Source: a bacterium | Lineage (GTDB): Bacteria; Myxococcota; UBA727; JAUIJE01 | Assembly: GCA_030431455.1 (NCBI GenBank) | Contig: JAUIJE010000005.1 | Span: forward strand, 387,460 to 451,459 | DNA: 64,000 nucleotides | Direction: 5' to 3' | In this document: positions 7,293 to 49,346 of the stretch, piece by piece | Position numbering within the stretch: the first letter of the stretch is position 1 | How the letters are laid out: each line of letters begins with the position of its first letter | Position numbers and translations under genes: made by a program | Notes under the pieces: model-generated | What the model saw: only the letters and a program-made list of their open reading frames with translations | Databases searched by the model: none | Told to the model about the DNA's origin: nothing

Positions 7293-7430
7293 GGTGTTTC
7301 CGGGGCAGGACCTGGGGCCGCCCCAGAGGGCCGGCCGCGTTGACGGACAAAGCAGGCCTTATTACGTCGAAAAGGGTCACAGATCGACGGGGCAGTCCCC
7401 TCCGCGCGGTCCTTTTCCCTGAGGTTTTCG

Positions 7431-15189: not shown

Positions 15190-15214
15190 TGCCAATGCAT
15201 GGACGGGGCACGGC

Positions 15215-16795
15215 ATGACCGACGGACAGCTCGGCGGCAGCCTCGAGGACCTCGAGCTCGACGAGGTCGTTCGCGTCATCGGCCTCTCGCGCCGGTCTGG
15301 CATCCTCCTGGTCGAGGGTCCCTGGGGCCGGGCCGAGATGGTGTTCGTGGTGGGCCACATCCGGTCCGTGCGCCACTCCGCGTCGACGGAGACGGTGGCC
15401 GACGTGTTGCTGCGCGCGGGGGTGTTTCATCCCCATGACCTGGTGAGCGACCCCGGCCGCACCGTCGACGACATCCTCCGGGACAAGAGCCGCACCGCGG
15501 TGGACGCGGCCACCCGCGCCGACGATGCGCTCCTCGAGCACATGGAAAAGACCGTGCTCGACGTGTTCGCTTACCGGCAGGGCACGTTCCGCTTTTCCCT
15601 CACCGAGCCGGGCCCCTGCCCCGACCGGTACCCGCGCGACACCACGTACATCGTGGCCGAAGGCCTCGACGCCGAACAGACCTGTGAGCGGGCCAAAAAG
15701 CGCCGCGGCCGCGGCCGCCATTCGCTGACCAAGACCCCGGGGCGCGAGGCCGACCAAGCCCCGGAGATCCTGGTCGTCGACGACGACCCCCGCTTCCTCG
15801 ACCGGTGCGCCCGGGCCCTGGAGGGGGCCGGGGTCCCGTTCCAGACCCTCGACGACGCGCGCCAAGGGTTGGACGCCCTCGACGCCCTCGCCGACAACCC
15901 CCGCGCGGTGTTGATCCTCGACCTGGTCATGCCCCGCCCCAACGGACGGGGCCTGCTCGGGGGCTTGCATCTGTTGCGTTTGGCCAGCCAACAGGGGGTC
16001 GCGGACCGCGTGTACATGGCGTTCGATCGCGCCCACGACGACGCCCATTCGATCTGCCTCGAGCTCGGCGCGGCCCAGGTGCTGAAAAAGCCGTCCGGGG
16101 TGCAACCCATCGGCCTGATGTTCAACCCCGTGCTCGAGCACCTCGGCCGCCCCCCCCTCCTGGCCGAACCCATCGATCTGGTGGGCGAGCTGCGCCAAGA
16201 GCTGGGCGAATCCGCCACCGAGTGGTCGGCCGATCCCGACCTCGACCTCGACGACGCCGCCCGCGGCCTGGAGATCCTGAAGTCGCTCCTCGCCCAGGTC
16301 AACAACCCCACCTACGAAGAAGAGATTCCGCTGTTGCTGTTGCGGTTCTCGTCGGCGTTCTTCTCGCGGGGGGCCCTGTTTGTGCCCCACGAACCCGACA
16401 ACAAACTCATCGGGCTCGGCGGCTACGGCGTCGGGCAGGCCGACCCGGGGCGCACCATTCACGCGCTGCACATCCCCCTCGCCGCCGACACCGTGTTCTC
16501 GCGCGCGATGCGCGAAAACACCGGGGTGCGCCAACCCTTTTTCGAGAGCGAATGGAACCTCCGCCTCACCGAGGCCCTCGGCGGCCCCCGCCCCCGCGAG
16601 GTGTACACCGCGCCGTTGCTCAGCCCGCGCGGGGTCGAAGCCGTGCTCTACGCCGACAACGCCCTCGACGACCACCCGTTCCCCGACATCACCCTGCTGG
16701 AGATTTTTCTCCAGCAGGCCGGGGCCGCGCTGGAGCGTTCGGACCTGGTGCGTGAGGTGCGCAACCTCAGCCAGCCGCCGATGGACGCACGCTGA
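15215..16795 (+). CDS. PATAN (DUF4388) - receiver (REC) - GAF domain regulator
   Basis: N-terminus DLELDEVVRVIGLSRRSGILLVE is PATAN-like. ILVVDDDPRF...VLILDLVMP...KKP is CheY-like REC. A C-terminal GAF-like region follows. Its stop overlaps the next start (TGATG). Confidence 0.7.
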   Translation: MTDGQLGGSLEDLELDEVVRVIGLSRRSGILLVEGPWGRAEMVFVVGHIRSVRHSASTETVADVLLRAGVFHPHDLVSDPGRTVDDILRDKSRTAVDAATRADDALLEHMEKTVLDVFAYRQGTFRFSLTEPGPCPDRYPRDTTYIVAEGLDAEQTCERAKKRRGRGRHSLTKTPGREADQAPEILVVDDDPRFLDRCARALEGAGVPFQTLDDARQGLDALDALADNPRAVLILDLVMPRPNGRGLLGGLHLLRLASQQGVADRVYMAFDRAHDDAHSICLELGAAQVLKKPSGVQPIGLMFNPVLEHLGRPPLLAEPIDLVGELRQELGESATEWSADPDLDLDDAARGLEILKSLLAQVNNPTYEEEIPLLLLRFSSAFFSRGALFVPHEPDNKLIGLGGYGVGQADPGRTIHALHIPLAADTVFSRAMRENTGVRQPFFESEWNLRLTEALGGPRPREVYTAPLLSPRGVEAVLYADNALDDHPFPDITLLEIFLQQAGAALERSDLVREVRNLSQPPMDAR

Positions 16796-17754
16796 TGCGC
16801 GGGGGCCGCCCCGCCGTCACAGTGGCATTGGTCGCGGTCGCCGCCGCCTGCCCCGCCCCCTACCCCGACGTGGACGCCTGGACCGAGCTCGCCCCCCTCG
16901 GCGGCGGGCCTCGCCAGGAGAGCGCGGTGGTCAACCTGCGCGACGAGGTCGTGGTCGTGGGCGGGGTGGACGCGGCCTCCAACACCCTCGCCACCGTCGA
17001 GGCCTACGACGTGGCCGGCGACGCCTGGCGCCGCCTCGCGGACCTGCCGGTGACCGCCCATCACGCGCACGTCGCCAGCTGCGGCGACCGCTTGTTTGTG
17101 CTCGGGTTTCTGCAAGGGCTCTCGTTCACCCCTGACCCCCGCGGCTTCGTGTACGACCCCGACGACGACGCGTGGTCGCCGGTGGCGGCCTTGCCCGCGC
17201 CCCACGACCGCGGCGGCGGCATCGCGTTGTGCGCATCCGACGGCGTGTACGTCATCGGTGGCCTCGCCGGCAACCCCGTGGCCACCGTGCACCGCTACGA
17301 CCCCGACGCGGACAGCTATGCTCAATTGGCCGACCTCCCCGCGGTGACCGACCACCTCGTGGGCGGGGTGATCGACGACGAAATCTTCGTGGCCGGGGGG
17401 CGCAACCGGTCCATCCGCGCCCACCGGGCGGATGTGTGGCGCTACGACCGCGCCGGTGACGCCTGGGTCGCGGGGGCGGACATGCCCACCTCCCGGGCCG
17501 GGGCCGCGGCCGCGGTGTCGGGCGGCGAGCTGTTCGTGTTCGGCGGCGAGGGGGACGCAAACGCCTCGAGCGGGGTGTTCGCCGAGGTCGAGGCCTACGA
17601 CCCGGTCTCCGATACCTGGCGCGAGCTCGATGACATGCCCCGGCCGCGCCACGGCATGGGGGCCGCGGCCGTGGGCAATGCCATTTACATCCCCGGCGGG
17701 GCCGACGTGCAGGGCTTTGCCGCGATCTCGCTACACGACAAATTCACGCCCTAG
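16795..17754 (+). CDS. Kelch-repeat beta-propeller lipoprotein
   Basis: 319 aa. Signal ending AAAC. Six repeats with GG-x-YD/WxxxxxMP motifs. Confidence 0.75.
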   Translation: MRGGRPAVTVALVAVAAACPAPYPDVDAWTELAPLGGGPRQESAVVNLRDEVVVVGGVDAASNTLATVEAYDVAGDAWRRLADLPVTAHHAHVASCGDRLFVLGFLQGLSFTPDPRGFVYDPDDDAWSPVAALPAPHDRGGGIALCASDGVYVIGGLAGNPVATVHRYDPDADSYAQLADLPAVTDHLVGGVIDDEIFVAGGRNRSIRAHRADVWRYDRAGDAWVAGADMPTSRAGAAAAVSGGELFVFGGEGDANASSGVFAEVEAYDPVSDTWRELDDMPRPRHGMGAAAVGNAIYIPGGADVQGFAAISLHDKFTP

Positions 17755-24092: not shown

Positions 24093-24978
24093 TCAGTCGA
24101 TCCGGAGTTCGACCTTTTCGCGGGCGGCGAAGATCACGAGTTTGCGCTGGTACTTGGCGGCGCGTTCGCGACAGGCGAGGATCTTGGCGTCGACCTCGTC
24201 GTCGGATTGCATCGGGTCGTGGTGGGTGATGGCCAAGCGCTTCACGTCGGCCTCGACCGCGGCGTCGACCAGGGTGGTGGCCCGGGCGTGGCCCCAGCCA
24301 ACCTTCTCCGGGTATTCCTCGTCGGTGTACTGGCCGTCGGCGATGAGCAAGTCGGCCCCGCGCACAAAGTCGATGTACTCCCGCGACACCTTGCGGTGCA
24401 CGCTGGGATTTTTGGCGACCTCATCGCGGTTGTCGAGGGTCATGTCGAGTTCGTTGTCGGTGGCGAACACCACCTTCTTGCCGTGGGCTTCAAAACAATA
24501 GGCCAACGAGCCCCCGGGGTGGGCCTGCACGAACCACGAGACCCGGGCCGGGCCGATGTCCGCCCCGCCGGGCTCGAGGTGGGCGGGCACCAGGTGGGCG
24601 GACAGCTCGGAGAACTCCACCGGGAAATATTCGGACCGCATCTGACCGGACAGCAGGTCAAAATGTGACTGATCGTGTTCGCTCTTGCCGTAAATGTAGA
24701 AGGTGTTGTCGGGCGCGTAGATGGGCGCGAAAAAGGGAAAACCCTGGATGTGGTCCCAATGTGGGTGCGAGAAGAACATGTGGCCGCTGATGGGGCGCTG
24801 CTTCCGCTTGAGCAGGCTTTCGCCGAGCTCCCGCAGGCCCGTCCCGCCGTCGCAAATGTAGAGCGTGTCGTCGATGCGGATTTCGATGCAGGTGGTGTTG
24901 CCGCCGTATTTGCGGGTCTGCCAGCCGGGGGTGGGGATCGAACCGCGCACCCCCCAAAACTTCACGAAGAAGCTCATC
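24093..24978 (-). CDS. MBL-fold metallo-hydrolase
   Basis: The HxHxDH motif is present as SHPHWDHIQG. The start MSFFVKFWGVRGS overlaps the FHA gene stop by 1 nt. The upstream part of the 343 aa track ORF is an extension. Confidence 0.75.
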
Positions 24979-25411
24979 AACCTGCCTCGTTGAAGATGAG
25001 GGTCACGTTGCCGATCTGCACCGCGTCCCCGTGGTGCAACACCGCGGAGTGGACGCGCAGACCGTTGAGATAAATGCCATTGCGGCTGTCGAGGTCCCGC
25101 GCGCAGTATTCGCGCCCGTCGCACTGAATCTCGACGTGCAGGCGCGACAACTCCGGGCTATCCACGGTGAAGTCCGCGGCCTTGCTCCGCCCCACGGTCA
25201 TGCGCTCCCGGGTAAGGACCAAGTCGCGGGGCGCGCCGGGGCCGGTGATCTGCCGCATCGCGGGCGGGCGTTGGGCGTTCTCGGGGAGCAGGAGGCGGAT
25301 GGACGCCTCGGTGGTTTGGCTTTCGCTCCATGACTCCATGGCCTGCTCGGCGGAGATGCCGCTCTCAGGCGCAATCGTCATCGGGTCGTCGGTGTCGTCT
25401 CGCCCCGCCAT
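24977..25411 (-). CDS. FHA domain protein
   Basis: MTVGRSKAADFTVDSPELSRLHVEI...SRNGIYLNG is a canonical FHA fold signature. Confidence 0.8.
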   Translation of the reverse strand: MAGRDDTDDPMTIAPESGISAEQAMESWSESQTTEASIRLLLPENAQRPPAMRQITGPGAPRDLVLTRERMTVGRSKAADFTVDSPELSRLHVEIQCDGREYCARDLDSRNGIYLNGLRVHSAVLHHGDAVQIGNVTLIFNEAG

Positions 25412-25509
25412 GCGGGTTCACCTTAGACCGATCCGCATCAGAAAGGGCAGTCCCCGGCCACGTTTTTGTCCCCGATCACGCTCCCGGAGCGCGACCGGGG
25501 ACACACCGC

Positions 25510-27804
25510 TCAGCGACGGAGGAACGACTTGAGCGCGGCCTCGTCGACCTTGTCCTTGCCCTGGGGCCCGACCACCAGCGTCCGCCCCTTGCCGACGGAG
25601 ACCTTGACCGACCCCCCCAAAGACAGCGCCGCTTTCAGGTCCGGCCGCAACTTGAGCACGAGGAAGTACGCGTCGGAGAACGGCTTGATCACCATTTCGC
25701 GGTCACCGCGTTTGACCTTCCCGTCGACGTACGCCGACCCGTCCCAGGTGAACGAGCGTCCCCCGCGCGCCACCTGTTCGGTCTGGGCGCGTTTTTTCGA
25801 CGCCACCGACCCTTGCCGCAGCGAACCGATCTCCTTGGCCGCCCGCACCGCGGCCTTGCCCGAGTCGGTGCGCAGCGACTCGCCTTTTTTGTCCCGGGAC
25901 CGGCGCCGGGGCGCGGCGGCGCTCGCCGGCGGGGGCGCGGCCCAGTCGTCGGCGGGCGCGGCCTCCTCGGCGTCCCCGTCGAACCCGCGCCCCAAGCCGC
26001 CGCTGCCTTCGCCCCCCCGGGGGGCGTTGCGGAACACGGGTTCGGGCAGGGGGCGGCCGGGCCCGGCGATGGGCGCGTTGGGCTCGACCACGAGGTAGCT
26101 GGTGTACGGGGTCACAATGCCAAAGCGCGTCGCGAGCTGCGTGACCTCGTCGACCAACCCCCGCTGCTCCCCCTTGTCACGGATTTCCGCCAACAGCATG
26201 CCCACCTGGCGCTGGGCCCACAGCCGCGGGATGAACTCCAGGTCGGTCGACAGCTTGGCGAAGGCGACATTGTGGGCAAACGTGCGCGGGCCTTTTTTCA
26301 TCGTGCCCGACAGCGTGACCTTGGCCTTGCCCCCGTCGCGGTACCGGCCGAGCACGACCAGCTGCCCCCCGCGGAACAGGTGGCCGAGCTTGCGCGGGTG
26401 GGTGCCGAACACGCGCACCCCCGACACCGCGAGCGACAGGTCGCTGAGCACCGGGTGGCTGATGCGATCGTAAAACCCCTGCACGTCGTTCTTGAGCGTC
26501 GCGTCCCCCGACGTGTAGAGGGCCATGCCCCCGGCCTCGTCCGCCATCTTGTCGAGGAGCACGGTGTTCACGTCGTCGCCCACCCCGAACACGAACAGGC
26601 GGGCGCCGTCCTTGTTGAAGCCGCCGATTTTCGACAGGAGCGCCTTGGTCTCGGTCTCGCCCACGGTGGGCCGCCCGTCGGTCAAAAACACCACCATGTG
26701 CGGCACCTTGCTCGATCCTGTGACATTGGCGAAGGTCAGCTGCATCGCCTCGTCGATGTTGGTGCCCCCGAGGGGCTCCATCTTGTCCACGAACGCCTTG
26801 GCCTTGTTCACGTTGCCGCGGCTGGCGGACAACATCTTGTCGGAGAACGCCTCCGCGAACCCGCCAAAGGACACGATGTTGAACAGGTCATCGTGGCCCA
26901 GGCGTCCCAGGCAGTAGCTCAGGGCCTCTTTGGTCGCGTCCATCTTCTCGCCCGCCATCGAGCCCGAGGTGTCGACCACGAAGCTCACCCGCTTGCCGAT
27001 GATCTCGCGGTCCCGCATCGCGTCCGAGGGCGAGGCCAACAACATGAAGTACCCGGGCTCGTCCCCGTCGTTGTAGGTGAGCAGGGTCATGCCCACGTCT
27101 TTGTCGTCGACCGACCACAGGAGGACGAAGTCCTCCGCCAATGAAAATGCACCTTTTTCGAAGCTGAGCACCCCGTGGTTGCCGTTGACGCGGGCCGCGG
27201 CTTTGTGGGTCGGGCTGTAGAGGTTCTTGATCGGGAGCTTGGAGTTGACCTTCACCGTGAACGTAAAGTCGTCGAGGGTCCGGCTCGCCATCGCGTCGGT
27301 CTTCATCGGGTAGATGTATTTGTGCGTCCCCGCGTCGTAGTCGACGAGGTGGCTGTACACGAGCTCGACCTTCTGGGTGCCGTTGGCGGGCACGGGAAAC
27401 ACCCGGGCTTGAAACAGCTGGGCGTCGACGTACTCGATGAGGCCCGGGTCCTGCGCGCGCCGCACAATCGACTCGTAGATTTGGCGGGCCTTTTGGCGTT
27501 CGAGGACTTCGCCTTTGACCTTCTTGCCGTTCATCCAGAGGGCGAAGCTGTCGATGCTCGCGCCCTGGGGCAGCGGGAACAGGTAGGTCGCCTCCAGCTG
27601 CCGCCCGGTGGGATTTTTGAACTCCTGGGTGACCTTGGTCTTGGCCCCCCGCTCATTGACCGTGACCTCGACGCGGTGGTGGGTGAGCTCCATCGGGAGG
27701 TGCTGGCTGCCGTTCGCGACCAGGATGCCGATGGCCTTCGCCGGGGTGGCGGCAAAGCAGACCGCGCACGCGGCGGCGATGAAGAGGGGGGCAAGGCGCG
27801 TCAT
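25510..27804 (-). CDS. secreted VIT (vault/inter-alpha-trypsin) + von Willebrand factor A domain protein
   Basis: Start MTRLAPLFIAAACAVCFA (cat 27802-27804, GGGAGGA SD). N-terminal VIT region. vWA MIDAS DTSGSM...TDG. Long C-terminus. Confidence 0.8.
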   Translation of the reverse strand: MTRLAPLFIAAACAVCFAATPAKAIGILVANGSQHLPMELTHHRVEVTVNERGAKTKVTQEFKNPTGRQLEATYLFPLPQGASIDSFALWMNGKKVKGEVLERQKARQIYESIVRRAQDPGLIEYVDAQLFQARVFPVPANGTQKVELVYSHLVDYDAGTHKYIYPMKTDAMASRTLDDFTFTVKVNSKLPIKNLYSPTHKAAARVNGNHGVLSFEKGAFSLAEDFVLLWSVDDKDVGMTLLTYNDGDEPGYFMLLASPSDAMRDREIIGKRVSFVVDTSGSMAGEKMDATKEALSYCLGRLGHDDLFNIVSFGGFAEAFSDKMLSASRGNVNKAKAFVDKMEPLGGTNIDEAMQLTFANVTGSSKVPHMVVFLTDGRPTVGETETKALLSKIGGFNKDGARLFVFGVGDDVNTVLLDKMADEAGGMALYTSGDATLKNDVQGFYDRISHPVLSDLSLAVSGVRVFGTHPRKLGHLFRGGQLVVLGRYRDGGKAKVTLSGTMKKGPRTFAHNVAFAKLSTDLEFIPRLWAQRQVGMLLAEIRDKGEQRGLVDEVTQLATRFGIVTPYTSYLVVEPNAPIAGPGRPLPEPVFRNAPRGGEGSGGLGRGFDGDAEEAAPADDWAAPPPASAAAPRRRSRDKKGESLRTDSGKAAVRAAKEIGSLRQGSVASKKRAQTEQVARGGRSFTWDGSAYVDGKVKRGDREMVIKPFSDAYFLVLKLRPDLKAALSLGGSVKVSVGKGRTLVVGPQGKDKVDEAALKSFLRR

Positions 27805-27892
27805 AAATCCTCCCGGTCGGGGCAAGGCCGACGAGATTGATAACGCATTGATGACCGAAACGATCTGCCCGCGGGCGCGGCCCGCGACGGCT

Positions 27893-28375
27893 TCAGCGGC
27901 GGTGGGCCTCGCGGGCTGTGATCGCGAACAAGATTTTCCCGCCGTCGGTGTTGGGCCCGCCCACCACGAGGGTCCCGCCGTCTTTCACCGCGACCCGGGT
28001 CTTGAACTTCAACGCCTTGATCGTGAGCTCAAACCCGATCATCCCGCCCTTCTGCGGACCGCGGGCTTTGACCACCAAGAACCGCTTGTCGCTCTTTTTG
28101 GGCCCGGGAAACTGGATGCTGACCTGCTCGCCCGCCTTCATCATCGTGTGGTGGTTCTCGAGGAGCTCGAACCGCCGAAACGGCAGCCCGCTCTGCAGGT
28201 CTTTTTTCAGAGGGAGCAGCGCGGGGTCCATGAACGGCGCCCCGTGCACCGCGCCTTTGATCACCCGGACCTCGACGATGACCAGCTCTTTGGCTTTCGC
28301 CTCGGCCTTGCCCGCGAACGCCAGCAGCATCGCGCCGGCACACAACGACAGGGCAAAGCCGCGGCGGGTGGTCAT
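27893..28375 (-). CDS. small secreted hypothetical protein
   Basis: 160 aa. Signal MTTRRGFALSLCAGAMLLAFAGKAEA. Its start overlaps the anti-sigma stop. Confidence 0.5.
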   Translation of the reverse strand: MTTRRGFALSLCAGAMLLAFAGKAEAKAKELVIVEVRVIKGAVHGAPFMDPALLPLKKDLQSGLPFRRFELLENHHTMMKAGEQVSIQFPGPKKSDKRFLVVKARGPQKGGMIGFELTIKALKFKTRVAVKDGGTLVVGGPNTDGGKILFAITAREAHRR

Positions 28376-28377
28376 GG

Positions 28378-29385
28378 TCAGGTGTCCTGCTCCTCGGGTT
28401 CTCCCACCCAGATGATGGTGATGTTGGACGCGTCGGTCTCGAAGACCGCGGTCGTGGGCACACCGGCCTGAATGCTTTGTACATCACTGTGGTTGTCGCG
28501 CAGAAGGGTCAAATCCGTCGCCACCGCCAAGGTGCGCACATCGGCGCTCGGCTCCCACGACTCGGGGGCCGGCTCGCCGCCGACAAAAAAGAACGCCGCG
28601 GCCGCCGCCGAGGCGAACGCGAGGGGGATGCCCACCGGCCGCAACCCCCCGAATAGACGGGAGAACCAGCCGCCCGTGGGGGCGGCCGGGCGCGCGTGGG
28701 CCGACGCCCGGGCCTCGTTTTGGGTGTGCTTTTCGATCGCCGACAGCGCCGCGGCGGCCGCTTTTTGGGCCTCGGGGGCACGGGCGTAGGCCGCGCCGAG
28801 GGCGGCCACGAGATCGGACTGCGCCACCAGCGACAAGAACGCCTCTTGCCGGGCGGCGGCGTGGGTCTCGTCGGTGAGCAGCTGGACCAAGGCCGGCCGA
28901 TCGACCGCTTCCCCGTCGAGCAAGGCCGCGGCCAGCTCTTGGGCGGCTTTGTCGTCGGCGAGCACGGCCGCGACCTGAGCGGCCACGTCCACGCCAGAGA
29001 CCAGGGCCGCGGTCTCCAGGGTGGCGCGGGCGGCGAGCGCGAGGTGGGCAAAATCTTCCGCCCCGTCCCCGCCGCGCATGAGCTCGACGAGCCGGGCGGT
29101 GCCCGCGTCGGTCAACGCCCCGTCGAGGGCTTGGGACATCAGGACCCGGCCGTCGTCGACCCCGGCGGGGGCGATCTGGGCCATGACCGCGTCGGCGACG
29201 TCAATGTCGCCCGCCGTCGCCCAGGACACCGCGCCCATCGCGGCGAGCTCGTCGACCAACGCGGGGTGCTCCTCGAGCGCGGCCATCAGCAACGCCTCGG
29301 TGTCGCGGTCGAGTTCACCGTCGACGAACGCACTCATCCACATGCGGAGGGTGTCGAGCTCGGTTTTTCCGTTTTCGCCTGTCAT
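28378..29385 (-). CDS. putative anti-sigma factor (membrane-anchored)
   Basis: It lies immediately downstream of the ECF sigma gene. The N-terminal cytoplasmic region is followed by a central hydrophobic segment (PVGIPLAFASAAAAAFFFV). No strong family motif, so this is assigned by position and topology. Confidence 0.5.
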   Translation of the reverse strand: MTGENGKTELDTLRMWMSAFVDGELDRDTEALLMAALEEHPALVDELAAMGAVSWATAGDIDVADAVMAQIAPAGVDDGRVLMSQALDGALTDAGTARLVELMRGGDGAEDFAHLALAARATLETAALVSGVDVAAQVAAVLADDKAAQELAAALLDGEAVDRPALVQLLTDETHAAARQEAFLSLVAQSDLVAALGAAYARAPEAQKAAAAALSAIEKHTQNEARASAHARPAAPTGGWFSRLFGGLRPVGIPLAFASAAAAAFFFVGGEPAPESWEPSADVRTLAVATDLTLLRDNHSDVQSIQAGVPTTAVFETDASNITIIWVGEPEEQDT

Positions 29386-29426
29386 CGTGCATCCCCAAGG
29401 AGGACCCTCCTCCTCGTACCAAGACG

Positions 29427-30242
29427 TTACGACCCGCCGTTGCCTTCACCATCCGCGGCCCCAGATCCGCTTTCTGATGCGGTTTGACCCACATGGTCGC
29501 CCTTGCCGATGTCGGCCAATGTCTGCCCTTCGGTGAGCCCGAGGTACGGGCGCAGGGCGGCCTGGAGATTTTTGCGGGCGTGGAACAGCCGGCTCATGAC
29601 CGTTCCCTTCGGAATTTCAAGACTTTGGGAGATTTCTTCGTAGCTCATGCCCTCGATTTCGCGCAGCAAAATCACCGCTTTGTGGTCATCGGACAGGGTG
29701 GCCATCGCTTTTTCGATCTGGCCGGCCAGCTCCTGGTTCTTCACGTTCTGCAGCGGGTTGGCCCCGCCGAGCTTGGGCGCGATGTCGGCCTGGGCAAAGA
29801 TGCTGTCCTCGGTGAGCTCGAACCCTTTGACCTCTTCGAAATCGACCTTTTTCCGGCGCGCCTGGGAGCGCTTCTTGTCGATGCAGAGGTTCACGCAGAT
29901 GCGGTAGAGCCAGGTCGAAAACGCGCTGTTGCCCTCGAACGCGTCGAGCTTGCGGTGCGCCTTGATGAACGCGTCCTGGACGACGTCCATCGCCTCGTCC
30001 CGGTCGCGCAGCATGCCCACCGCCACCGCGAACAAGCGGCCCTGGTTCATTTCCACCAGCTTGCGGAACGCGCGCGCGTCCCCCGCCTTGGCCTCGTCGA
30101 CGAGGGTGCCCTCGATCTCCCGGGCCCGGGTGCGCTTTTGGTCCTTCTCGGCCGCGCGCTCTTTGACCTTGTCGACGACCGACTCGACGTCCTTTTCGGA
30201 GAGGGGCGCTTGCTGCTCGGGCTGCGCCGCGGTCTTGGTCAT
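29427..30242 (-). CDS. ECF-family RNA polymerase sigma factor (sigma-70 regions 2 and 4)
   Basis: Region 2 DVVQDAFIKAHRKLDAF...FSTWLYRICVN. Region 4 LREIEGMSYEEISQSLEIPKGTVMSRLFHARKNL. Start MTKTAAQ with AGGAGG SD. Confidence 0.85.
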   Translation of the reverse strand: MTKTAAQPEQQAPLSEKDVESVVDKVKERAAEKDQKRTRAREIEGTLVDEAKAGDARAFRKLVEMNQGRLFAVAVGMLRDRDEAMDVVQDAFIKAHRKLDAFEGNSAFSTWLYRICVNLCIDKKRSQARRKKVDFEEVKGFELTEDSIFAQADIAPKLGGANPLQNVKNQELAGQIEKAMATLSDDHKAVILLREIEGMSYEEISQSLEIPKGTVMSRLFHARKNLQAALRPYLGLTEGQTLADIGKGDHVGQTASESGSGAADGEGNGGS

Positions 30243-30361
30243 CGAGCCTCCTGGGCACTGCGCCCGCCCCCTTGTAGCACCTGACCCCACAGCGATTCAA
30301 AGGCCCCAGGTCACGCCGCGACCGATGCCTGCCGGCGCGGAAGAGACGTTAGAGTGCCCCC

Positions 30362-33300
30362 ATGGCCGCCCGCCCTTCGTCTTTGGGTCATCAAATCGAC
30401 CGCGCCCGGCGCAGCCTGCGTCTGTTCGGCGCGGTCGAGACCGCGCTTGCGGGGTTGCTCGCGGGGGCGTTTTTTCTCGTCATCGCCCTGGTGCTCGTCG
30501 ACGTGCTGCCGTTTTCGTACGGGACCCGGGCGGTGCTGTGGGCGCTCGGTCCGGTCGCGTTTGTGCTCACCGGCGCGGGCCTGTTTGTGCGCCGCCTGCT
30601 GCCCCTGCGCGACGACGAGGCGGTGGCGGGGGCGCTCGAGCGGGGCGCGGCCCGGCGCGGGACCACGTTGTGGGGCGAAGCGGTCAGCGCGGCCGAGCTG
30701 TTGCGCGGCCAGGGCACAGGTTCGCCGACGATGAAGAACGCGTTCATCGCCGACGTGGCCGCCCGGTTGAGCCGGGCCGGGGCCCACCGCGGGCTCGTCG
30801 AGCTGTCCTGGCGCAGCGCGCGGGTGGTGGTGGCGATCGCGGTGCTCGCCGCCGGGGCGTTCTATGCCGCGTCGACCACCGCGGTGTTTCAGGATCGGTG
30901 GGCGCAGTTGTTCGACGACGAGGTCGCGGAAAAGCGCATCGCCGAGCGGGCCCTGTTGCGGGTGCCGCTGGTGACCAACCTGACGGTGACGCTGTCGTTC
31001 CCCGCGTACATGGAGCGTGGGCCGGAGACCGTCGAGGGCAGCTCGGGCGACGTGGCCGCCCCGCGGGGCACCTTCGTCGACCTCAGTGGGCTGTCCGACC
31101 GGCCCATCGGCCGGGCCGCGCTGCTGTACGGGGACGCCGAAATCGCGCTCACCGTCGAGGACCAGCGACGGGTGTCGGGGCGTTTTGTGCTCGAGGAGGC
31201 CGGCACCTACCGGTTTGTGGTCCACGAGCTCGACGGGGACAAGGTGCTCGACCCCGTGGCCCACAAAGTCACATTGGTGGCGGACCGGGTCCCGGAGGTG
31301 GTGCTCGCCGCCCCCCCCGAGGACCGGGTGGTGCAACTCGACGAGGACATCGAGGTGTTGTTCTCGGGCACGGACGACTTCGGCCTGACCGGTTTTCGCC
31401 TCGTGGTGCGGCGGCAACAAAGCGGCGGCCAGGGCTTCGAGAAGTCCCTGATGGAGCTGTCCCCCGCGCTGGCCAAAGCCGGGGGCCGGGGCACGTTCAC
31501 CCCCGCCGAAGCCGGCGCCAAAGCCGGGGACAAGTTGAGCGTGTACGTCGAGGCGCTCGACAACGACACCATCGCCGGGCCCAAGGTGGGCCGCAGCGAG
31601 ACCCGGGTGCTCACGGTGTTCTCCGCCGCGTTGCACCACCGGGAGTTGATCGACCTGCAGCAGGCCCTGCTCGACGCCATGCTCGAGTCGCTGGCCGACG
31701 AGCTCGAACACCCCGTCGACGCGGCCGCCGCCGAGCGCGCCGACCCCGCGCAGGGCCAGGCCCTCGACGAGCACGAACGCATCGGCAACCGCCACGCGGC
31801 CATGCTCGAAGCCTTCGGCCGGGTGCTGACCCACCTGCGCACCGACGAGCTCGCCCCCGACGACATCAAAGCCGCGCTCACCAAAATGAGCCGCGAGCTG
31901 AGCGGGGTGGTGGACAAGTCGCGGGAGTTGGTGAGCGCGGCCAAAAAGACCCTGCAGAGCGGGCGTGCCCTCCCCGCCTACTTCTGGCGCGATTTGGGCA
32001 AAGCCAACAAGAAGCTCGTGGCCGCGCTCGAAAAAGACGTGCTCTACCTCGACGACCTCTTGACCCGGCAGCGGCTGGAAGAGGTCGAGACGCTGACCGC
32101 GGAGATGCGCGACGCCCAAAAGAACCTCAAGGAGCTGATCGAGCAGTACAAAAAGAGCCCCGACGACCAGACCCGCGAGGCCATCCTCGAGGAGATCCGG
32201 GCCCTGCGGGAGCAGATGCAAAAAATCGCCGAGCGCCTCGCCGAGCTGCGCCGGGACATCCCCGACGAGCACATCAACAAAGAGGCCATGCACCAAGCCG
32301 AGCAGATGCAGGACGCGCAGAGCATCGATGAGCTCATCGAGCAGGGCAAGGTCGACGAGGCCTTGCAGCAGCTCGAACAGATGATGCAACAGACCGAGCA
32401 GCTGCTCGACGGGCTGTCGGAGAGCCGGCAAGAGTTCGGCGATGAGAGCTACCGGGAGCTGGCGGAGAAGATGGAAAAGTTCGGGGCCGAGCTGCAAGCG
32501 GTGCAGGCCGAGCAAGAGCAGCTCCTCGACCAGAGCCAGCGCATGCTCGATGCGGCCCAGAAGCGCGCCCTCGAAAAGACGATGAAACAAATGCAGGAGG
32601 TTTGGCCCGACCTTTTGGAAAAGGCCAAACAAGCGCAAAAGGACCTCCAGGGCATCGACGACTCACGGCTGTTTCCGCACGAACGGGAGGACCTCGCCGG
32701 GGCCCAGTCGCGGGTCGATGACCTGGTGCGGGCGCTCGAAGCCGAAGACGTGGCCGACGCCCAGCAGAGCGCGGAGGACGCCGAGCGCATGGTGCGCACC
32801 AGCGAGCAGGACGTGGCCGACCGGGTGCGGGGCCGGTTCGGCAGCCGTGACCCGTCGATGAAGGACGCGGCCGCCCGGCTCAAAAAGGCGCGCCCCCGGG
32901 TCGAGGACGTGCGGGACGAACTCGACAAGCTCTTGCCCGACCCCCGCAAGTTCCTCGACGAGGGCCAACGACAGCTGATGAAAAAGAACGCCGAACGCCA
33001 GCAGCAGCTCAAGAAGAGGACGCAGCAGCTGCAAAAACAGATGCGCGACATCGACAAGGAGGCGCCCATCTTCGGGGAAGAGCCGCAACAAATGTTGCAG
33101 CGTGCCGGCGAACAAATGGGCATGGCCCAGAACCGGCTGCGCAGCCAGCGCCTGCGGGAGGGCAAGTCTTCGCAGGGCCGCGCGTCCCAAGAGCTCAAGG
33201 CCCTGGGCGAGCGCATGCAGCAGATGGCGCAACAGCAAGGCCAGTCGGGGGGGGTGCCGATTCCTCTGCCCGGCGGCGGCAGCGACGGGGGCGGCGACCA

Positions 33301-33469
33301 GGAGGGCAACGGCCGCCACACCGGCAAAGAGGACGTGAAGATCCCCGGGGCGGAGCAGTACCGGGTCCCGGACGCCTTCCGCAAGGACATCCTCGACGCC
33401 ATGCGCGAGGACGCGCCGGAGAATTACCAGCGCGAGGTGAAAAAATACTACGAGGAGTTGGTCAAATGA
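30362..33469 (+). CDS. large membrane-anchored coiled-coil protein (DUF4175-like)
   Basis: 1035 aa. Two N-terminal TM helices, a beta-rich middle, and ~500 aa of Q/E/K-rich coiled coil. C-terminal motif PENYQREVKKYYEEL. Confidence 0.6.
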   Translation: MAARPSSLGHQIDRARRSLRLFGAVETALAGLLAGAFFLVIALVLVDVLPFSYGTRAVLWALGPVAFVLTGAGLFVRRLLPLRDDEAVAGALERGAARRGTTLWGEAVSAAELLRGQGTGSPTMKNAFIADVAARLSRAGAHRGLVELSWRSARVVVAIAVLAAGAFYAASTTAVFQDRWAQLFDDEVAEKRIAERALLRVPLVTNLTVTLSFPAYMERGPETVEGSSGDVAAPRGTFVDLSGLSDRPIGRAALLYGDAEIALTVEDQRRVSGRFVLEEAGTYRFVVHELDGDKVLDPVAHKVTLVADRVPEVVLAAPPEDRVVQLDEDIEVLFSGTDDFGLTGFRLVVRRQQSGGQGFEKSLMELSPALAKAGGRGTFTPAEAGAKAGDKLSVYVEALDNDTIAGPKVGRSETRVLTVFSAALHHRELIDLQQALLDAMLESLADELEHPVDAAAAERADPAQGQALDEHERIGNRHAAMLEAFGRVLTHLRTDELAPDDIKAALTKMSRELSGVVDKSRELVSAAKKTLQSGRALPAYFWRDLGKANKKLVAALEKDVLYLDDLLTRQRLEEVETLTAEMRDAQKNLKELIEQYKKSPDDQTREAILEEIRALREQMQKIAERLAELRRDIPDEHINKEAMHQAEQMQDAQSIDELIEQGKVDEALQQLEQMMQQTEQLLDGLSESRQEFGDESYRELAEKMEKFGAELQAVQAEQEQLLDQSQRMLDAAQKRALEKTMKQMQEVWPDLLEKAKQAQKDLQGIDDSRLFPHEREDLAGAQSRVDDLVRALEAEDVADAQQSAEDAERMVRTSEQDVADRVRGRFGSRDPSMKDAAARLKKARPRVEDVRDELDKLLPDPRKFLDEGQRQLMKKNAERQQQLKKRTQQLQKQMRDIDKEAPIFGEEPQQMLQRAGEQMGMAQNRLRSQRLREGKSSQGRASQELKALGERMQQMAQQQGQSGGVPIPLPGGGSDGGGDQEGNGRHTGKEDVKIPGAEQYRVPDAFRKDILDAMREDAPENYQREVKKYYEELVK

Positions 33470-35430
33470 CGCGCTCCTTGGTGTTCGCCTGTGCAGTGGC
33501 ATGCGGGCTTGCCTTTGCCGGGCCCGCGGCGGCCCAAGACGCGGCCGGCCTCGGCGACAAGCTCGAACGGGTCCAGCGCCTGCTCGACGACTGGCAGCTG
33601 GTGGAGGCCGCGGCCATCGCCGCCGAGCTCGAGCGCACGTTGCCCGACGTGCCCCCGGTGCAGGCGGTGCTCGGGGAGGTGAAGTTCCACCAGGGGGATT
33701 ACGAAGGCGCGCGCCGGCTGCTGCGCCGGGCCTCGGAGGGGGGCAGCGCCGACCCCCTGCTGCTTCAGCTCGCCGAGAGCACCTACGAGGAGACCGCGGG
33801 GTTTGTGAGCGTCGAGAGCGAACACTTCGTGCTGCGCACCCCCGCGGGCAAAGACGAGATCCTGGCCGACACCGCGCTGTGGGCTTTGGAGAAGGCCTAC
33901 GCGGCCCTGACCCAGGCGTTCGATTACGAGGTCCCGCACAAGATCCCCGTCGACGTGCTGCACGACGCGCGGGGCTTGGCCGCGGTGAGCACCCTGACCG
34001 TGCAAGAGATCGAGACCTCGGGCACGATTGCGCTCTGCAAGTTCAACCGGTTGATGATCACCAGCCCCAAGGCCCTGGCCCGGGGCTATGCCTGGTTGGA
34101 CACGCTGTCGCATGAGCTCATCCACCTCATCATCAGCGAGAAGTCGCGCAACACCGTGCCCATCTGGCTGCACGAGGGGCTCGCCAAATACATGCAGTCG
34201 CTTTGGCGTGGACAGCGGGGCCTCGCCCTCACCCCCGCGTCCGAACAGTTGCTGGCCCAGGCGGTGAAGAAAAACGAGCTCATCACCTTCGAGCAGATGC
34301 ACCCGTCCATGGCCAAGCTCCCGTCGCAGGAAGCCACCGCCCTCGCCTTCGCTGAGGTGTTCACCGTCATCGAGTACCTGATGAGCGATGCCGTCACCCA
34401 AGGCAAAAAGAGCCCCTACGCGGTGACCAACACCCTGCTCGACACCCTGGCCACGGGCAAAAACATGGACCGCTCGCTCCAAGCCTCGGCCGGCACCAAC
34501 CTCGCCGGCCTGCAGAAACGTTGGAAGCGATACTTGAAGAAACGCCCGTTCAAACTCAAGGCCGACGACAAGCCGCGCCCCCTGCGTTTTGTGCACAACG
34601 CCCGCAAGGGCAACGCGTCCGTGGACGAGGAAGAGGACGAGGCCGCGCTGTTCGAGACCACCGACGACAAAGCCAAAAAGTTCGTGCGGCTGGGCAATCT
34701 TCTGCGCGGCCGGGCCCGGCTCAAGGCGGCCACGGTGGAATATGAAAAAGCCCGCGGCCGGCTCAAATCGATGAGCCCCAGCTTGAACAACCGGGTGGCC
34801 GGCATCTACCTCCGGCTCGACGACACCGCCGGGGCCGCGCGCATCCTCGACGAGACGGTCAAGGTCTACCCCGACGACCCCCAGACCCGGGTGTTGCGCG
34901 GCCGGCTCTTTTTGGCCGAGAAAAAGTACAAACAAGCCCGCGGCGAATACGAGCGCGCCCTCTGGGAAAACCCCTTCCACCCCGAGGTGCACGCGGGGCT
35001 GTACCAAATCGCGGACAAGACCAACGACGCTTCGCTCAAAAAGAAGGCCGAACGGAATCTCGGCCTGCTCTCGGGCCACGCCAAAGAAAACCCCACCGCG
35101 CGCTTCGCCCTCGCCGAGGACGGCGAGCCCTTCGGGACCTTGTCGCTCTCGAGCGACCCGTGGGGCGAGCTGTTCATCGATGGGCGGCCCACGGGCATGA
35201 TCACCCCGGTCACCGACCTCCCGCTGCGGCCCGGGACCTATCTCATCCGGGTCGAGGACCGCGTGAGCGGCCAGGTGCAGGCGCGCTCGATCACGGTGCA
35301 AGCAGGCCAAGCGGTGCGCGAGCGCTTCACCCTGCAAGACCTCGACGACGCCGCCCGCCAAGACATCGCCGCCCGGGAGGACAAGGCCCAGGGCGCGACC
35401 TTGCCCGACGCGGGCCCCGCCCACCCGTGA
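33466..35430 (+). CDS. secreted TPR-repeat protein with an HExxH (peptidase MA-like) motif and a C-terminal PEGA domain
   Basis: Signal peptide present. SHELIHLIISE. TPR-like helices. C-terminal FGTLSLSSDPWGELFIDGRPTG is PEGA-like. ATGA overlap with the upstream gene. Confidence 0.65.
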   Translation: MTRSLVFACAVACGLAFAGPAAAQDAAGLGDKLERVQRLLDDWQLVEAAAIAAELERTLPDVPPVQAVLGEVKFHQGDYEGARRLLRRASEGGSADPLLLQLAESTYEETAGFVSVESEHFVLRTPAGKDEILADTALWALEKAYAALTQAFDYEVPHKIPVDVLHDARGLAAVSTLTVQEIETSGTIALCKFNRLMITSPKALARGYAWLDTLSHELIHLIISEKSRNTVPIWLHEGLAKYMQSLWRGQRGLALTPASEQLLAQAVKKNELITFEQMHPSMAKLPSQEATALAFAEVFTVIEYLMSDAVTQGKKSPYAVTNTLLDTLATGKNMDRSLQASAGTNLAGLQKRWKRYLKKRPFKLKADDKPRPLRFVHNARKGNASVDEEEDEAALFETTDDKAKKFVRLGNLLRGRARLKAATVEYEKARGRLKSMSPSLNNRVAGIYLRLDDTAGAARILDETVKVYPDDPQTRVLRGRLFLAEKKYKQARGEYERALWENPFHPEVHAGLYQIADKTNDASLKKKAERNLGLLSGHAKENPTARFALAEDGEPFGTLSLSSDPWGELFIDGRPTGMITPVTDLPLRPGTYLIRVEDRVSGQVQARSITVQAGQAVRERFTLQDLDDAARQDIAAREDKAQGATLPDAGPAHP

Positions 35431-46062: not shown

Positions 46063-48452
<2,390 letters not shown>

Positions 48453-48642
48453 TCAGAACGTGTACCCAGAACGGGCCCCAACGCAAACTGGGCCTGCCGT
48501 CCGATGCGTCGCAGAAAGCCCTGATTTTCGACACAATTTTGTCAATTGAAGATGTACTTACATAAGTACGTTTCCAGCCCCGCCCGGGATCCTTCCGTCC
48601 CCCCCGCGCCGCAACCGCGCCCGCCGCAGCTAACATCGCGCC

Positions 48643-49341: not shown

Positions 49342-49346
49342 GCGCG

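What the first reader, a model, noticed from the sequence alone, without database searches (positions are those of the whole stretch)
24093..30242. ECF sigma / anti-sigma cluster with a small secreted protein, VIT-vWA protein, FHA protein and MBL hydrolase, all on one strand
The gene order is sigma(ECF), membrane anti-sigma, a 160 aa secreted protein, a 765 aa secreted VIT+vWA protein, an FHA protein, then an MBL-fold hydrolase. Couplings are tight (ATGA at two junctions, 1-nt overlap FHA/MBL). This reads as a single envelope-signalling module in which a vWA/VIT extracellular protein is under ECF control and an FHA phospho-threonine reader links it to the local Ser/Thr kinase network. This combination is not a named system.
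Basis: partly seen in the sequence, partly recalled or inferred. Interest (0 to 1): 0.6.

Follow-up and report, generated by a model that had tools for sequence, protein, structure and literature searches.

The report
ECF sigma trio with secretin-like partner
The six genes are real, but they are not one conserved system: the conserved unit is an envelope-stress sigma factor, its membrane anti-sigma factor and a small secreted protein that resembles a cut-down secretin, and the adhesin-like VIT/vWA gene and the FHA/hydrolase pair are neighbours found beside it only in this lineage.

Summary
The claimed coupling is only partly right. FHA and MBL overlap by 1 nt, but there are no ATGA overlaps, and the other gaps are 41, 2, 88 and 98 nt.

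Comparative data split the cluster into modules.
- **Trio.** The 160-aa secreted protein belongs to a family with no Pfam match. Wherever the upstream DNA could be read (seven divergent lineages, down to about 25-30% identity), it directly follows an ECF sigma and a single-pass anti-sigma. VIT/vWA follows it only in the window and one close relative.
- **VIT/vWA.** Orthologues usually lack the trio. However, in 6 of 80 distant loci from other phyla an ECF sigma lies directly beside the VIT gene and nowhere else in the flanks.
- **FHA-MBL.** This overlapping pair follows VIT only in close relatives and lies behind a strong hairpin.

Most likely the small protein acts as a periplasmic partner of the anti-sigma tail, in the way RseB or an STN domain does. 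That mechanism is inferred, not shown. This is a new variant of a known kind.

The parts
29427..30242 (-). ECF (group 4) sigma factor, 271 aa. It is RpoE-like, with a K/E-rich N-terminal extension of about 55 aa and a C-terminal extension of about 40 aa.
   Evidence: Sigma70_r2 66 bits, Sigma70_r4_2 57 bits and Sigma70_ECF 38 bits, all above cut-off. TIGR02937 scores 111.7 against a cut-off of 42.9; the RpoE equivalog scores 140.5, below its cut-off of 236. An AGGAGG sits 6 nt before the ATG at 30242. The public gene call is the same.
28378..29385 (-). Single-pass anti-sigma factor, 335 aa. It has an N-terminal anti-sigma-like segment without cysteines, a transmembrane helix at about residues 250-270, and a 63-aa periplasmic tail ending ...SNITIIWVGEPEEQDT.
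   Evidence: zf-HC2 is borderline at 22.5 bits. The L004 orthologue matches RseA_N at 23.8 bits against a cut-off of 24, and the L098 homologue matches zf-HC2. The L102 homologue has HLEDCTIC. The tail motif and W326 are conserved across 9 homologues.
27893..28375 (-). Small secreted all-beta protein, 160 aa, with a signal peptide that probably ends AEA|K. It has a secretin-like fold ('mini-secretin') and is the third member of the conserved trio.
25510..27804 (-). Secreted VIT + vWA protein, 764 aa. It has a signal peptide and an intact MIDAS motif (DTSGS at residue 278), and is a bacterial homologue of inter-alpha-trypsin-inhibitor heavy chains. It is not part of the conserved trio.
   Evidence: VIT 111.9 bits and VWA_3 66.7 bits. 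PDB 9c4f ITIH4 matches at E 2.7e-47 over residues 44-576. Neighbourhoods are variable.
24977..25411 (-). Small cytoplasmic FHA-domain protein, 144 aa, with the phosphothreonine-binding residues present (GR74, S89xxH92, N111G).
   Evidence: FHA 65.8 bits. It is paired with the MBL gene in L004, L005 and L087.
24093..24977 (-). MBL-fold metallo-hydrolase, 294 aa, with HPHWDH at residue 71. Its start overlaps the FHA stop by 1 nt (TGATG).
   Evidence: Lactamase_B_2 42.5 bits. RNase Z models score far below cut-off. No PDB sequence relative was found. The motif comes and the junction.
30273..30299 (-). Candidate autoregulatory ECF-type promoter of the sigma gene: TGAAT-N17-CTACA. The -35 element lies 57 nt upstream of the ATG.
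   Evidence: The family motif TGAA[TC]-N16/17-CGTC lies 48-73 nt upstream of the sigma start in L004, L096/97, L098, L099 and L100/101. Its background frequency is 0.026 per kb per strand. The window copy keeps the -35 element and the spacing but not the CGTC.
30362..33469 (+). Divergently transcribed DUF4175 membrane and coiled-coil protein, 1035 aa. It is a frequent neighbour of the trio.
   Evidence: PF13779 44 bits. It is divergent from the sigma gene in the window, L004, L090, L091 and L098.
33466..35430 (+). Secreted Peptidase_MA_2 + TPR + PEGA protein, 654 aa, co-oriented with DUF4175.
   Evidence: PF13485 58.9 bits. It is conserved next to DUF4175 in L004, L090, L091 and L098; in L098 a MoxR ATPase follows.
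25467..25503 (-). A 17-bp GC-rich hairpin starting 7 nt after the VIT stop codon. It is a probable transcript boundary or attenuator before FHA-MBL, and has no U-tract.
   Evidence: MFE -50.5 kcal/mol, z = -2.93. At the same position L005 has a canonical hairpin plus T-run, and L004 has a hairpin.
27870..27886 (-). A 7-bp GC hairpin (CGCGGGC-cgc-GCCCGCG) just after the stop codon of the small gene.
   Evidence: The fold of the whole region is not better than shuffles (z = -0.63), so this is weak evidence.
29396..29416 (-). A hairpin that pairs the GAGGAGGAGG ribosome-binding stretch of the anti-sigma gene with CCUCCUU.
   Evidence: MFE -17.2 kcal/mol, z = -2.36. Its function was not tested.

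Best explanation
The region is a juxtaposition of modules, not one six-gene system.

**Module A (sigma, anti-sigma, small protein).** This is a conserved three-gene ECF signalling unit. The single-pass anti-sigma holds the sigma factor at the inner membrane. Its short conserved periplasmic tail (...V-E-S-x-E...VF-x-T...N-I-T-V-I-W) is proposed to dock by beta-strand addition onto the small secreted secretin-like protein. That partner would gate access of envelope proteases to the anti-sigma, as RseB/MucB do for RseA/MucA and as the secretin-related STN signalling domain of FoxA does for FoxR. Loss of the partner interaction would lead to regulated proteolysis of the anti-sigma and release of sigma. 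Free sigma would then transcribe its own operon from a TGAAY-N16/17-CGTC-type promoter and, probably, neighbouring envelope genes.

**Likely targets.** In this organism these would be the divergent DUF4175/Peptidase_MA operon and the downstream VIT/vWA adhesin-like protein.

**Module B (VIT/vWA).** This is a secreted ITIH-like, MIDAS-containing binding protein. Different lineages have repeatedly placed it next to ECF sigma/anti-sigma pairs.

**Module C (FHA + MBL hydrolase).** This is a separate, translationally coupled cytoplasmic pair.

**Shown:** gene content, domain identities, module boundaries from synteny, the conserved anti-sigma tail, the promoter motif in relatives, and the secretin-like fold of the model.

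**Inferred:** the binding of the small protein to the anti-sigma tail, the proteolytic mechanism, and ECF control of VIT and of DUF4175/Peptidase_MA.
For: **Trio conservation.**
- Every family member whose upstream DNA was available follows an ECF sigma and a 180-405-aa anti-sigma. This holds for the window, L004, the L090/L091/L092 clade, L096/97, L099, L098, L100/101 and L102.
- Stop and start overlap or lie close in most of these loci.
- The gene downstream of the trio differs between lineages.

**Sigma and anti-sigma co-inheritance.**
- Trio sigmas match the window sigma better (E 1e-38 to 1e-87) than VIT-linked sigmas of other phyla do (about 1e-30).
- The anti-sigma periplasmic tail motif, with an invariant Trp, is shared by all nine aligned homologues even though their cytoplasmic parts differ greatly (also L102).

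**Promoter.** TGAA[TC]-N16/17-CGTC lies at -48 to -73 of the sigma start in five lineages, against a background of 0.026 per kb per strand.

**Secretin-like fold.**
- The AF2 model has pLDDT 89.8.
- phmmer gives E 1.3e-7 to a multi-secretin protein.
- hhalign gives 75% probability over the ...V-x-D-G-G-T-x-V-x-G-G... motif.
- Secretin is the only Pfam family hit by more than one member, though below threshold.

**Precedent.** Secretin-related domains bind anti-sigma periplasmic domains by beta-sheet extension and protect them from proteolysis (PMC11637429). RseA/RseB context defines the ECF02 group (PMC7826278).

**VIT and ECF.** All 6 ECF sigmas found in 1.2 Mb of distant VIT loci are adjacent to VIT.

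**Module separation.**
Against: - No experiment or complex prediction links the small protein to the anti-sigma tail. The interaction rests on gene order, co-conservation and analogy.
- The window's own sigma promoter lacks the CGTC -10 element, and no copy of the motif lies upstream of VIT or FHA. ECF control of VIT here would therefore need read-through across an 88-nt gap that contains a hairpin.
- No canonical terminator was found on the minus strand inside the cluster, so a single long transcript is not excluded.
- The sample of trio contexts is small (about 10 loci out of 86 family representatives).
Confidence: 0.6

Rival explanations
1. All six genes form one ECF-controlled envelope-signalling operon in which the VIT/vWA protein is the output or sensor, and the FHA protein couples it to Ser/Thr kinase signalling.
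For: - All six genes lie on the same strand, and no canonical terminator was found on that strand.
- The same six genes occur in the same order in L004.
- ECF sigma/anti-sigma pairs recur next to VIT/vWA genes in other phyla.
- The FHA protein has intact phosphothreonine-binding residues.
Against: - L004 also shares the flanking genes on both sides, so it is not independent evidence.
- The trio occurs without VIT, FHA or MBL in at least six other lineages.
- VIT occurs without the trio in five orthologous loci, and without FHA/MBL in three of them.
- None of the 80 distant VIT loci has FHA/MBL next to VIT.
- A strong hairpin follows VIT in the window, and L005 has a canonical terminator at that position.
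- No ECF-type motif lies before VIT or FHA.
- No Hanks kinase motif occurs in the 64 kb.
Confidence: 0.15
2. The small protein is a true outer-membrane secretin pore: a minimal channel that exports the adjacent large secreted protein (here VIT/vWA). The ECF pair would only regulate its expression.
For: - It has a secretin-like model and sequence motif.
- In the window, L004, L090/91 and L098 the gene that follows encodes a large secreted or membrane protein.
Against: - The mature protein is only about 130 aa. It has no N0-N3 or STN domains, and the stretch between ...GG and the last strand, which in secretins carries the gate and lip, is absent.
- It scores below the Pfam secretin threshold.
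- In L096/L099, L100 and L102 no large secreted protein follows it. The next gene is convergent or unrelated.
- No other secretion-system genes lie nearby.
Confidence: 0.1
3. The secretin resemblance is spurious. The small protein would then be a generic periplasmic beta-sandwich, either an ECF regulon member of unknown role or a second anti-sigma component like B. subtilis YhdK.
For: - Foldseek finds no significant PDB match, and its top hits are unrelated beta proteins.
- The Pfam and PDB sequence hits are below threshold.
Against: - The independent sequence hits fall on the same conserved secretin motif.
Confidence: 0.15

Closest known systems
RpoE-RseA-RseB(-RseC) of E. coli and AlgU-MucA-MucB of P. 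aeruginosa (ECF02-type operons)
   Same: - The gene order is the same: ECF sigma, then single-pass anti-sigma, then a small secreted protein.
- The sigma is RpoE-like by NCBIfam ranking.
- The L004 anti-sigma nearly reaches the RseA_N threshold.
- The proposed role of the third protein, shielding the anti-sigma periplasmic part from proteolysis, is that of RseB/MucB.
   Different: - The third protein has no MucB_RseB (LolA-like) domain. It is a family without a Pfam match and has a secretin-like model.
- The sigma is below the RpoE equivalog cut-off.
- The anti-sigma periplasmic part is a tail of about 35-60 aa with its own motif.
- There is no RseC.
Cell-surface signalling (FecI-FecR-FecA; FoxI-FoxR-FoxA)
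   Same: An anti-sigma periplasmic domain is bound, by beta-sheet extension, to a domain of the secretin world (STN), and this protects it from proteolysis (PMC11637429). One distant VIT-linked anti-sigma (L034) has a weak STN-like C-terminus, and another (L020) has TonB_C.
   Different: - There is no TonB-dependent transducer here.
- There is no FecR/DUF4880/DUF4974 domain.
- The similarity is to the channel-forming secretin domain, not to STN.
Secretins (PF00263: GspD, PilQ, InvG, pIV, RcpA)
   Same: - The first-strand pattern (V-x-V-R-V-I-E-A) and the late motif (V-x-V-x-D-G-G-T-x-V-V-G-G-P ... L-x-A-V-T-A) are shared.
   Different: - The mature protein is about 130 aa, against 400-800 aa for secretins.
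- It has no N domains and no pilotin-binding S domain, and the segment between GG and the last strand is missing.
- It scores below the Pfam threshold.
- It lies in a regulatory, not a secretion-system, gene context.
ECF groups whose partner carries a vWA domain (for example ECF289, anti-sigma fused to DUF3520 + vWA)
   Same: An ECF sigma is genomically tied to a vWA-domain envelope protein (PMC7826278). The sigma, zf-HC2 anti-sigma, VIT/vWA operons in L015, L020, L034 and L039 resemble this.
   Different: Here the vWA protein is a separate secreted VIT+vWA (ITIH-like) protein, not a domain of the anti-sigma. It is not conserved with this sigma family.
Inter-alpha-trypsin inhibitor heavy chains and bacterial VIT-vWA proteins (TIGR03788 sortase targets)
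   Same: The VIT + vWA + ITIH-type C-region aligns to ITIH4 and ITIH1 over about 530 residues. The MIDAS motif is intact.
   Different: TIGR03788 scores 263.6, below its cut-off of 551.65. There is no C-terminal sorting signal. The function in bacteria is unknown.

Membership tests
ECF (group 4) sigma-70 factors | Sigma regions 2 and 4 only; match to the ECF models above threshold | tested here: met
   PF04542 66.2 bits (cut-off 24), PF08281 56.8 (25.7) and PF07638 38.1 (21.1). TIGR02937 111.7 (42.9).
RpoE / sigma-E equivalog (TIGR02939) | Score at or above the equivalog cut-off | tested here: not met
   140.5 bits against a cut-off of 236.15. PRK11922 scores 153.9 against 204.
Zinc-binding anti-sigma (ZAS, zf-HC2) | H-x3-C-x2-C motif in the N-terminal anti-sigma domain | tested here: not met
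   The window protein has no cysteine, and zf-HC2 is only borderline at 22.5 against 22.2. Homologues in L098, L096/99 and L102 do carry the motif, so the window copy is a cysteine-less derivative.
Membrane anti-sigma factor (class I, generic) | Encoded directly after the sigma; N-terminal sigma-binding domain; one transmembrane helix; extracytoplasmic C-terminus | tested here: met
   The transmembrane helix at 250-270 and the 63-aa tail come. Binding to the sigma factor is not testable with these tools.
RseB/MucB periplasmic regulators | MucB_RseB domain (LolA-like fold) | tested here: not met
   No Pfam or NCBIfam hit. The model's best matches are secretins, not LolA-like proteins.
Secretin (PF00263) | Match to the secretin domain model at the gathering score | tested here: not met
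   13.4 bits against a cut-off of 27.5. Only 4 of 57 family members hit at all, with a best E of 0.024.
Secretin (PF00263) | Secretin-domain fold | tested here: inconclusive
   [not shown]
Secretin (PF00263) | Periplasmic N domains (N0/STN, N1-N3), gate and lip, 12-15-mer outer-membrane channel | tested here: not met
   The mature protein is about 130 aa with a single domain. Oligomerisation is not testable here.
VIT + vWA (ITIH-like) proteins | VIT domain followed by a vWA domain with a DxSxS MIDAS motif | tested here: met
   PF08487 111.9 bits and PF13768 66.7 bits. DTSGS lies at residue 278. ITIH4 matches at E 2.7e-47.
Marine proteobacterial sortase target (TIGR03788) | Equivalog score; C-terminal sortase signal | tested here: not met
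   263.6 bits against a cut-off of 551.65. The C-terminus is ...KSFLRR, without an LPXTG-type signal.
FHA domain | FHA model above threshold, with the Arg, Ser, His and Asn phosphothreonine-binding residues | tested here: met
   PF00498 65.8 bits. GR74, S89-x-x-H92 and N111-G are present.
MBL-fold hydrolase | HxHxDH metal-binding motif; Lactamase_B-type model above threshold | tested here: met
   [not shown]
Known anti-phage defence systems (PADLOC) | Any protein matching a defence-system model | tested here: not met
   None of the six proteins gave a hit at E <= 0.001.
MoxR-vWA / Bat-type operons | MoxR AAA+ ATPase and DUF58 next to the vWA gene | tested here: not met
   Neither family was found among the neighbours scanned between 14678 and 36564. 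A MoxR gene lies beside DUF4175/Peptidase_MA only in L098. The rest of the window was scanned only in part.

The most novel reading that the evidence does not exclude
A domain derived from the secretin channel has been reduced to a secreted protein of about 130 aa and recruited as the dedicated periplasmic or outer-membrane partner of a family of ECF anti-sigma factors. This would be a previously undescribed third component class for ECF signalling. It might oligomerise like a secretin and report on outer-membrane or secretin-assembly state, with the short W-terminated anti-sigma tail inserting as an extra beta-strand.
Probability: 0.3. Interest if true: 0.7.

Novelty: new variant of a known kind. 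Interest (0 to 1): 0.45.

Why it matters
ECF sigma factors are the most numerous bacterial envelope-signalling devices, and for most groups the input mechanism is unknown. Three consequences follow.

- A conserved third gene with a secretin-like fold gives a concrete, testable input component for one such group in Myxococcota-like and related uncultured bacteria.
- It would extend the theme that secretin-world domains, so far the STN domain in FecA/FoxA, talk to anti-sigma factors.
- The analysis also corrects the gene-cluster reading. VIT/vWA and FHA/MBL should not be annotated as parts of one system with the sigma factor. The repeated, independent placement of VIT/vWA genes beside ECF pairs in other phyla does suggest that these ITIH-like surface proteins are common ECF outputs.

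Tried and rejected
- **Canonical ECF motif.** It was rejected as the promoter here.
- **Sigma upstream alignment.** MAFFT alignment of four sigma upstream regions (A5) was too divergent to be useful. The motif came from reading more distant loci.
- **Word-indexed search.** Searching with the small protein found only itself. The exhaustive HMMER search was needed.
- **Metagenome scans.** A 7-sequence alignment gave only 6 loci.
- **Fold searches.** Foldseek against the PDB gave no significant hit. The AFDB libraries were not available.
- **Structure of the anti-sigma.** A complex prediction of the tail with the small protein was not possible.
- **Other searches without result.**
  - PADLOC gave no hits.
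  - PDB sequence search with the MBL protein found nothing.
  - Literature searches for DUF4175, for VIT/vWA with sigma factors, and for secretin-like anti-sigma partners found nothing describing this arrangement.
  - The supplement of the ECF classification paper is not held.
- **Sortase-target identity.** This was considered for VIT and rejected on score and C-terminus.

Full report
**1. What is in the sequence**

The window has 69% G+C, so I separated genes from shadow ORFs by codon-position G+C. Between 24093 and 30242, six minus-strand ORFs show the pattern of real genes (GC1 > GC2, GC3 0.81-0.92). Gene calls in public assemblies of the same organism are identical to my model: 271, 335, 160, 764, 144 and 294 aa.

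Pfam and NCBIfam give the following.
- The sigma is an ECF sigma, with regions 2 and 4 and TIGR02937 well above cut-off. The RpoE, SigW and SigM equivalogs all fall below their cut-offs.
- The anti-sigma hit is borderline (zf-HC2, 22.5 bits).
- The 160-aa protein has no family match.
- VIT and vWA match.
- FHA matches.
- A Lactamase_B_2 MBL fold matches.

Simple sequence checks add detail.
- The anti-sigma has no cysteine, one strong transmembrane helix at residues 250-270, and a 63-aa tail.
- The VIT/vWA protein has a signal peptide and an intact MIDAS motif (DTSGS).
- The FHA protein has its Arg, Ser, His and Asn phosphothreonine-binding residues.
- The MBL protein has HPHWDH.

The cluster is bounded upstream by a divergent DUF4175 gene (30362-33469), which is followed by a Peptidase_MA_2/TPR/PEGA gene. 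Downstream it is bounded by a convergent lipoprotein gene that ends at 24082.

**2. The junctions**

I read the junctions directly from the sequence.

| Junction | Result |
|---|---|
| sigma to anti-sigma | 41-nt gap |
| anti-sigma to small | TGAccATG, 2-nt gap |
| small to VIT | 88-nt gap |
| VIT to FHA | 98-nt gap |
| FHA to MBL | TGATG, 1-nt overlap |

The consensus scan found no canonical terminator on the minus strand inside the cluster. However, the VIT-FHA gap folds into a 17-bp hairpin (-50.5 kcal/mol, z = -2.93). At the same position L005 has a textbook hairpin plus T-run, and L004 has a hairpin. A 7-bp GC hairpin follows the small gene, but the fold of that whole gap is no better than shuffled sequence. 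The sigma to anti-sigma gap folds so that the GAGGAGGAGG ribosome-binding stretch is paired (z = -2.36).

**3. The small protein**

A word-indexed search of 5.8 billion proteins found only the protein itself. An exhaustive HMMER search of 1.84 billion cluster representatives found 86 relatives. Nearly all are secreted proteins of 130-200 aa. Two proteins of about 990 aa also matched through its C-terminal 35 residues. Those two contain 4-5 Pfam Secretin domains.

The aligned motif is the classical secretin ...V-x-V-x-D-G-G-T-x-V-x-G-G... followed by the last strand ...L-F-x-V-T-P/A-R.

Three results argue for caution.
- Foldseek gave no significant PDB match.
- A profile search of PDB sequences put secretins only at E 0.3-0.7.
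- Pfam Secretin is below threshold, although it is the only family hit by more than one family member.

I therefore call the protein secretin-like and do not file it as a secretin.

**4. Which genes travel together**

I anchored first on the small-protein family. Every locus in which upstream DNA was available has an ECF sigma, then an anti-sigma, then the small gene, usually with overlapping or nearly abutting stops and starts.

| Locus or clade | Downstream or divergent context |
|---|---|
| L004 | full six-gene order, flanks also shared |
| L090/L091/L092 clade | 456-aa lipoprotein downstream |
| L096/L097 and L099 | convergent GTPase |
| L098 | ImpL63-like membrane protein downstream |
| L100/L101 | unrelated genes |
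| L102/L103 | unrelated genes |

These small proteins are only 25-50% identical to the window's, so the trio is old. VIT/vWA follows the trio only in the window and in L004.

DUF4175 plus Peptidase_MA_2 lie divergently next to the trio in the window, L004, L090, L091 and L098. L098 also has a MoxR ATPase.

The nine aligned anti-sigma factors differ greatly in their cytoplasmic parts (181-405 aa). All share a short periplasmic C-terminal motif, D-N-x-x-V-E-S-x-E ... V-F-x-T ... S-N-I-T-V-I-W, with an invariant Trp. The L102 protein has it too. Co-conservation of this tail with the small protein is my main reason for proposing that the two interact.

**5. Anchoring on VIT/vWA**

Close orthologues (55-66% identity) have varied neighbours.
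- L004 has all six genes plus both flanks.
- L005 has VIT-FHA-MBL, with the upstream DNA cut off.
- L087 has no sigma, and a reverse-strand gene lies between VIT and FHA-MBL.
- L006, L088 and L089 have no sigma and no FHA/MBL. Instead they have a different conserved upstream pair, and MFS/PTR2 transporters downstream.

Among 80 more distant loci from a genome collection (46% identity or less, many phyla), none has the small protein, FHA or MBL next to VIT.

A sigma profile found six ECF sigma genes in the 1.2 Mb of those loci, and all six lie directly beside the VIT gene.
- Four have the order sigma, zf-HC2 anti-sigma, VIT. They come from a Spirochaetota MAG, an Acidobacteriota MAG, an Armatimonadota MAG and an unclassified MAG.
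- Two are divergent from VIT, in Verrucomicrobiota.

The anti-sigma factors in these loci carry other C-terminal domains: TonB_C in one and a weak STN-like segment in another. VIT/vWA genes have therefore been placed under or next to ECF pairs repeatedly. It does not tie VIT to this particular trio.

**6. Promoter**

The canonical GGAAC-N16-CGT motif is absent upstream of sigma, VIT and FHA.

Reading the sigma upstream regions of the trio loci revealed TGAA[TC]-N16/17-CGTC. It lies 48-73 nt before the sigma start in L004, L096/97, L098, L099 and L100/101. Its background frequency in 2.4 Mb of strand sequence is 0.026 per kb. L090 has TGAAC-N17-GTCT.

The window has TGAAT-N17-CTACA at 30299-30273. 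The position and the -35 element fit, but the -10 element does not. No copy precedes VIT or FHA in the window or in L004.

Autoregulation of the trio is therefore well supported for the family and plausible for the window. ECF control of VIT here would need read-through or a divergent promoter.

**7. FHA and kinases**

FHA and MBL form a translationally coupled pair in the window, L004, L005 and L087. The 64-kb window contains no Hanks-type catalytic-loop motif in any frame, and none of the neighbours I scanned is a kinase. A link to phospho-signalling is possible in principle, but it is not local and nothing here ties it to the sigma factor.

**8. Mechanism proposed**

Shown:
- a conserved sigma/anti-sigma/secreted-protein operon;
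- a conserved anti-sigma tail;
- a family-wide ECF-type promoter.

Inferred:
- The secreted secretin-like protein binds the tail, probably by beta-strand addition, and controls its exposure to proteases.
- This would resemble RseB/MucB acting on RseA/MucA. It would also resemble the secretin-related STN signalling domain of FoxA, which binds FoxR by sheet extension and protects it from proteolysis (PMC11637429).
- Release would lead to regulated proteolysis and free sigma.
- The secreted HExxH peptidase encoded divergently is a candidate protease or regulon member. This is speculation based only on co-location.

**9. Comparison with known systems, and novelty**

The arrangement works like an RpoE-RseA-RseB-type operon, but it fails the membership tests for RpoE, RseB and Secretin (see the membership table).

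The ECF classification paper notes ECF groups with vWA-containing partners, such as ECF289, and the RseA/RseB context of ECF02 (PMC7826278). I found no text describing a secretin-like +2 gene or a VIT/vWA link. That paper's supplement was not available, so an existing ECF group may already include these sigmas.

Verdict: the six-gene 'system' is not a unit. The trio is a new variant of a known kind and is of moderate interest.

Noticed in passing
window 46063-49380 (-): A 1105-aa protein has a C-terminal vertebrate-type protein-arginine deiminase domain (PF03068 PAD, E 5.6e-67), which is uncommon in bacteria. A MORN-repeat protein is encoded divergently at 49347-51431.
   Followed up: no
P0149 and P0191: These proteins of about 990 aa carry four or five tandem Pfam Secretin domains in one chain. 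That is an unusual architecture for secretins, which normally have one.
   Followed up: no
L006 5116-7914, L089 6243-7911, L088 about 6627-7955: VIT/vWA orthologues that lack the sigma trio are preceded by a different conserved pair without Pfam matches: a 110-143-aa protein and a 300-393-aa protein, duplicated in L006. MFS/PTR2 transporters often follow them.
   Followed up: partly
window 29396-29416 (-): A hairpin pairs the GAGGAGGAGG ribosome-binding stretch of the anti-sigma gene with CCUCCUU (z = -2.36). It may set the sigma to anti-sigma translation ratio.
   Followed up: partly
window 29427-30242 (-) and trio sigmas in L004, L090, L091, L096, L099: These ECF sigmas are long (253-310 aa). 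They have a K/E/A-rich N-terminal extension of about 50 aa or more, and in the window a Gly/Ser-rich C-terminal extension. The extensions could be an extra regulatory layer.
   Followed up: no
L091 10400-11968 (-): A Ser/Thr protein kinase with a weak, sub-threshold C-terminal PEGA match (E 0.0088, 16.4 bits) lies about 2 kb downstream of the trio in this relative. PEGA also gives a borderline match at the C-terminus of the Peptidase_MA protein in the window.
   Followed up: no
L098 361-1296 (-) and L098/L100 GHL10 genes: In L098 a MoxR-type AAA+ ATPase follows DUF4175/Peptidase_MA. A GHL10 (DUF4015) glycoside-hydrolase-like gene lies near the trio in both L098 and L100/L101.
   Followed up: no
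window 25430-25450 (-) and L004 about 10385-10405: A short element, TTT(C)TGATGCGGAT(T)CGG, is shared upstream of the FHA gene in the window and in L004. It may be a promoter or operator of the FHA-MBL pair.
   Followed up: no
window 14678-17754 (+): A DUF4388 + response-regulator receiver protein (705 aa) is followed directly by a Kelch-repeat protein (319 aa).
   Followed up: no
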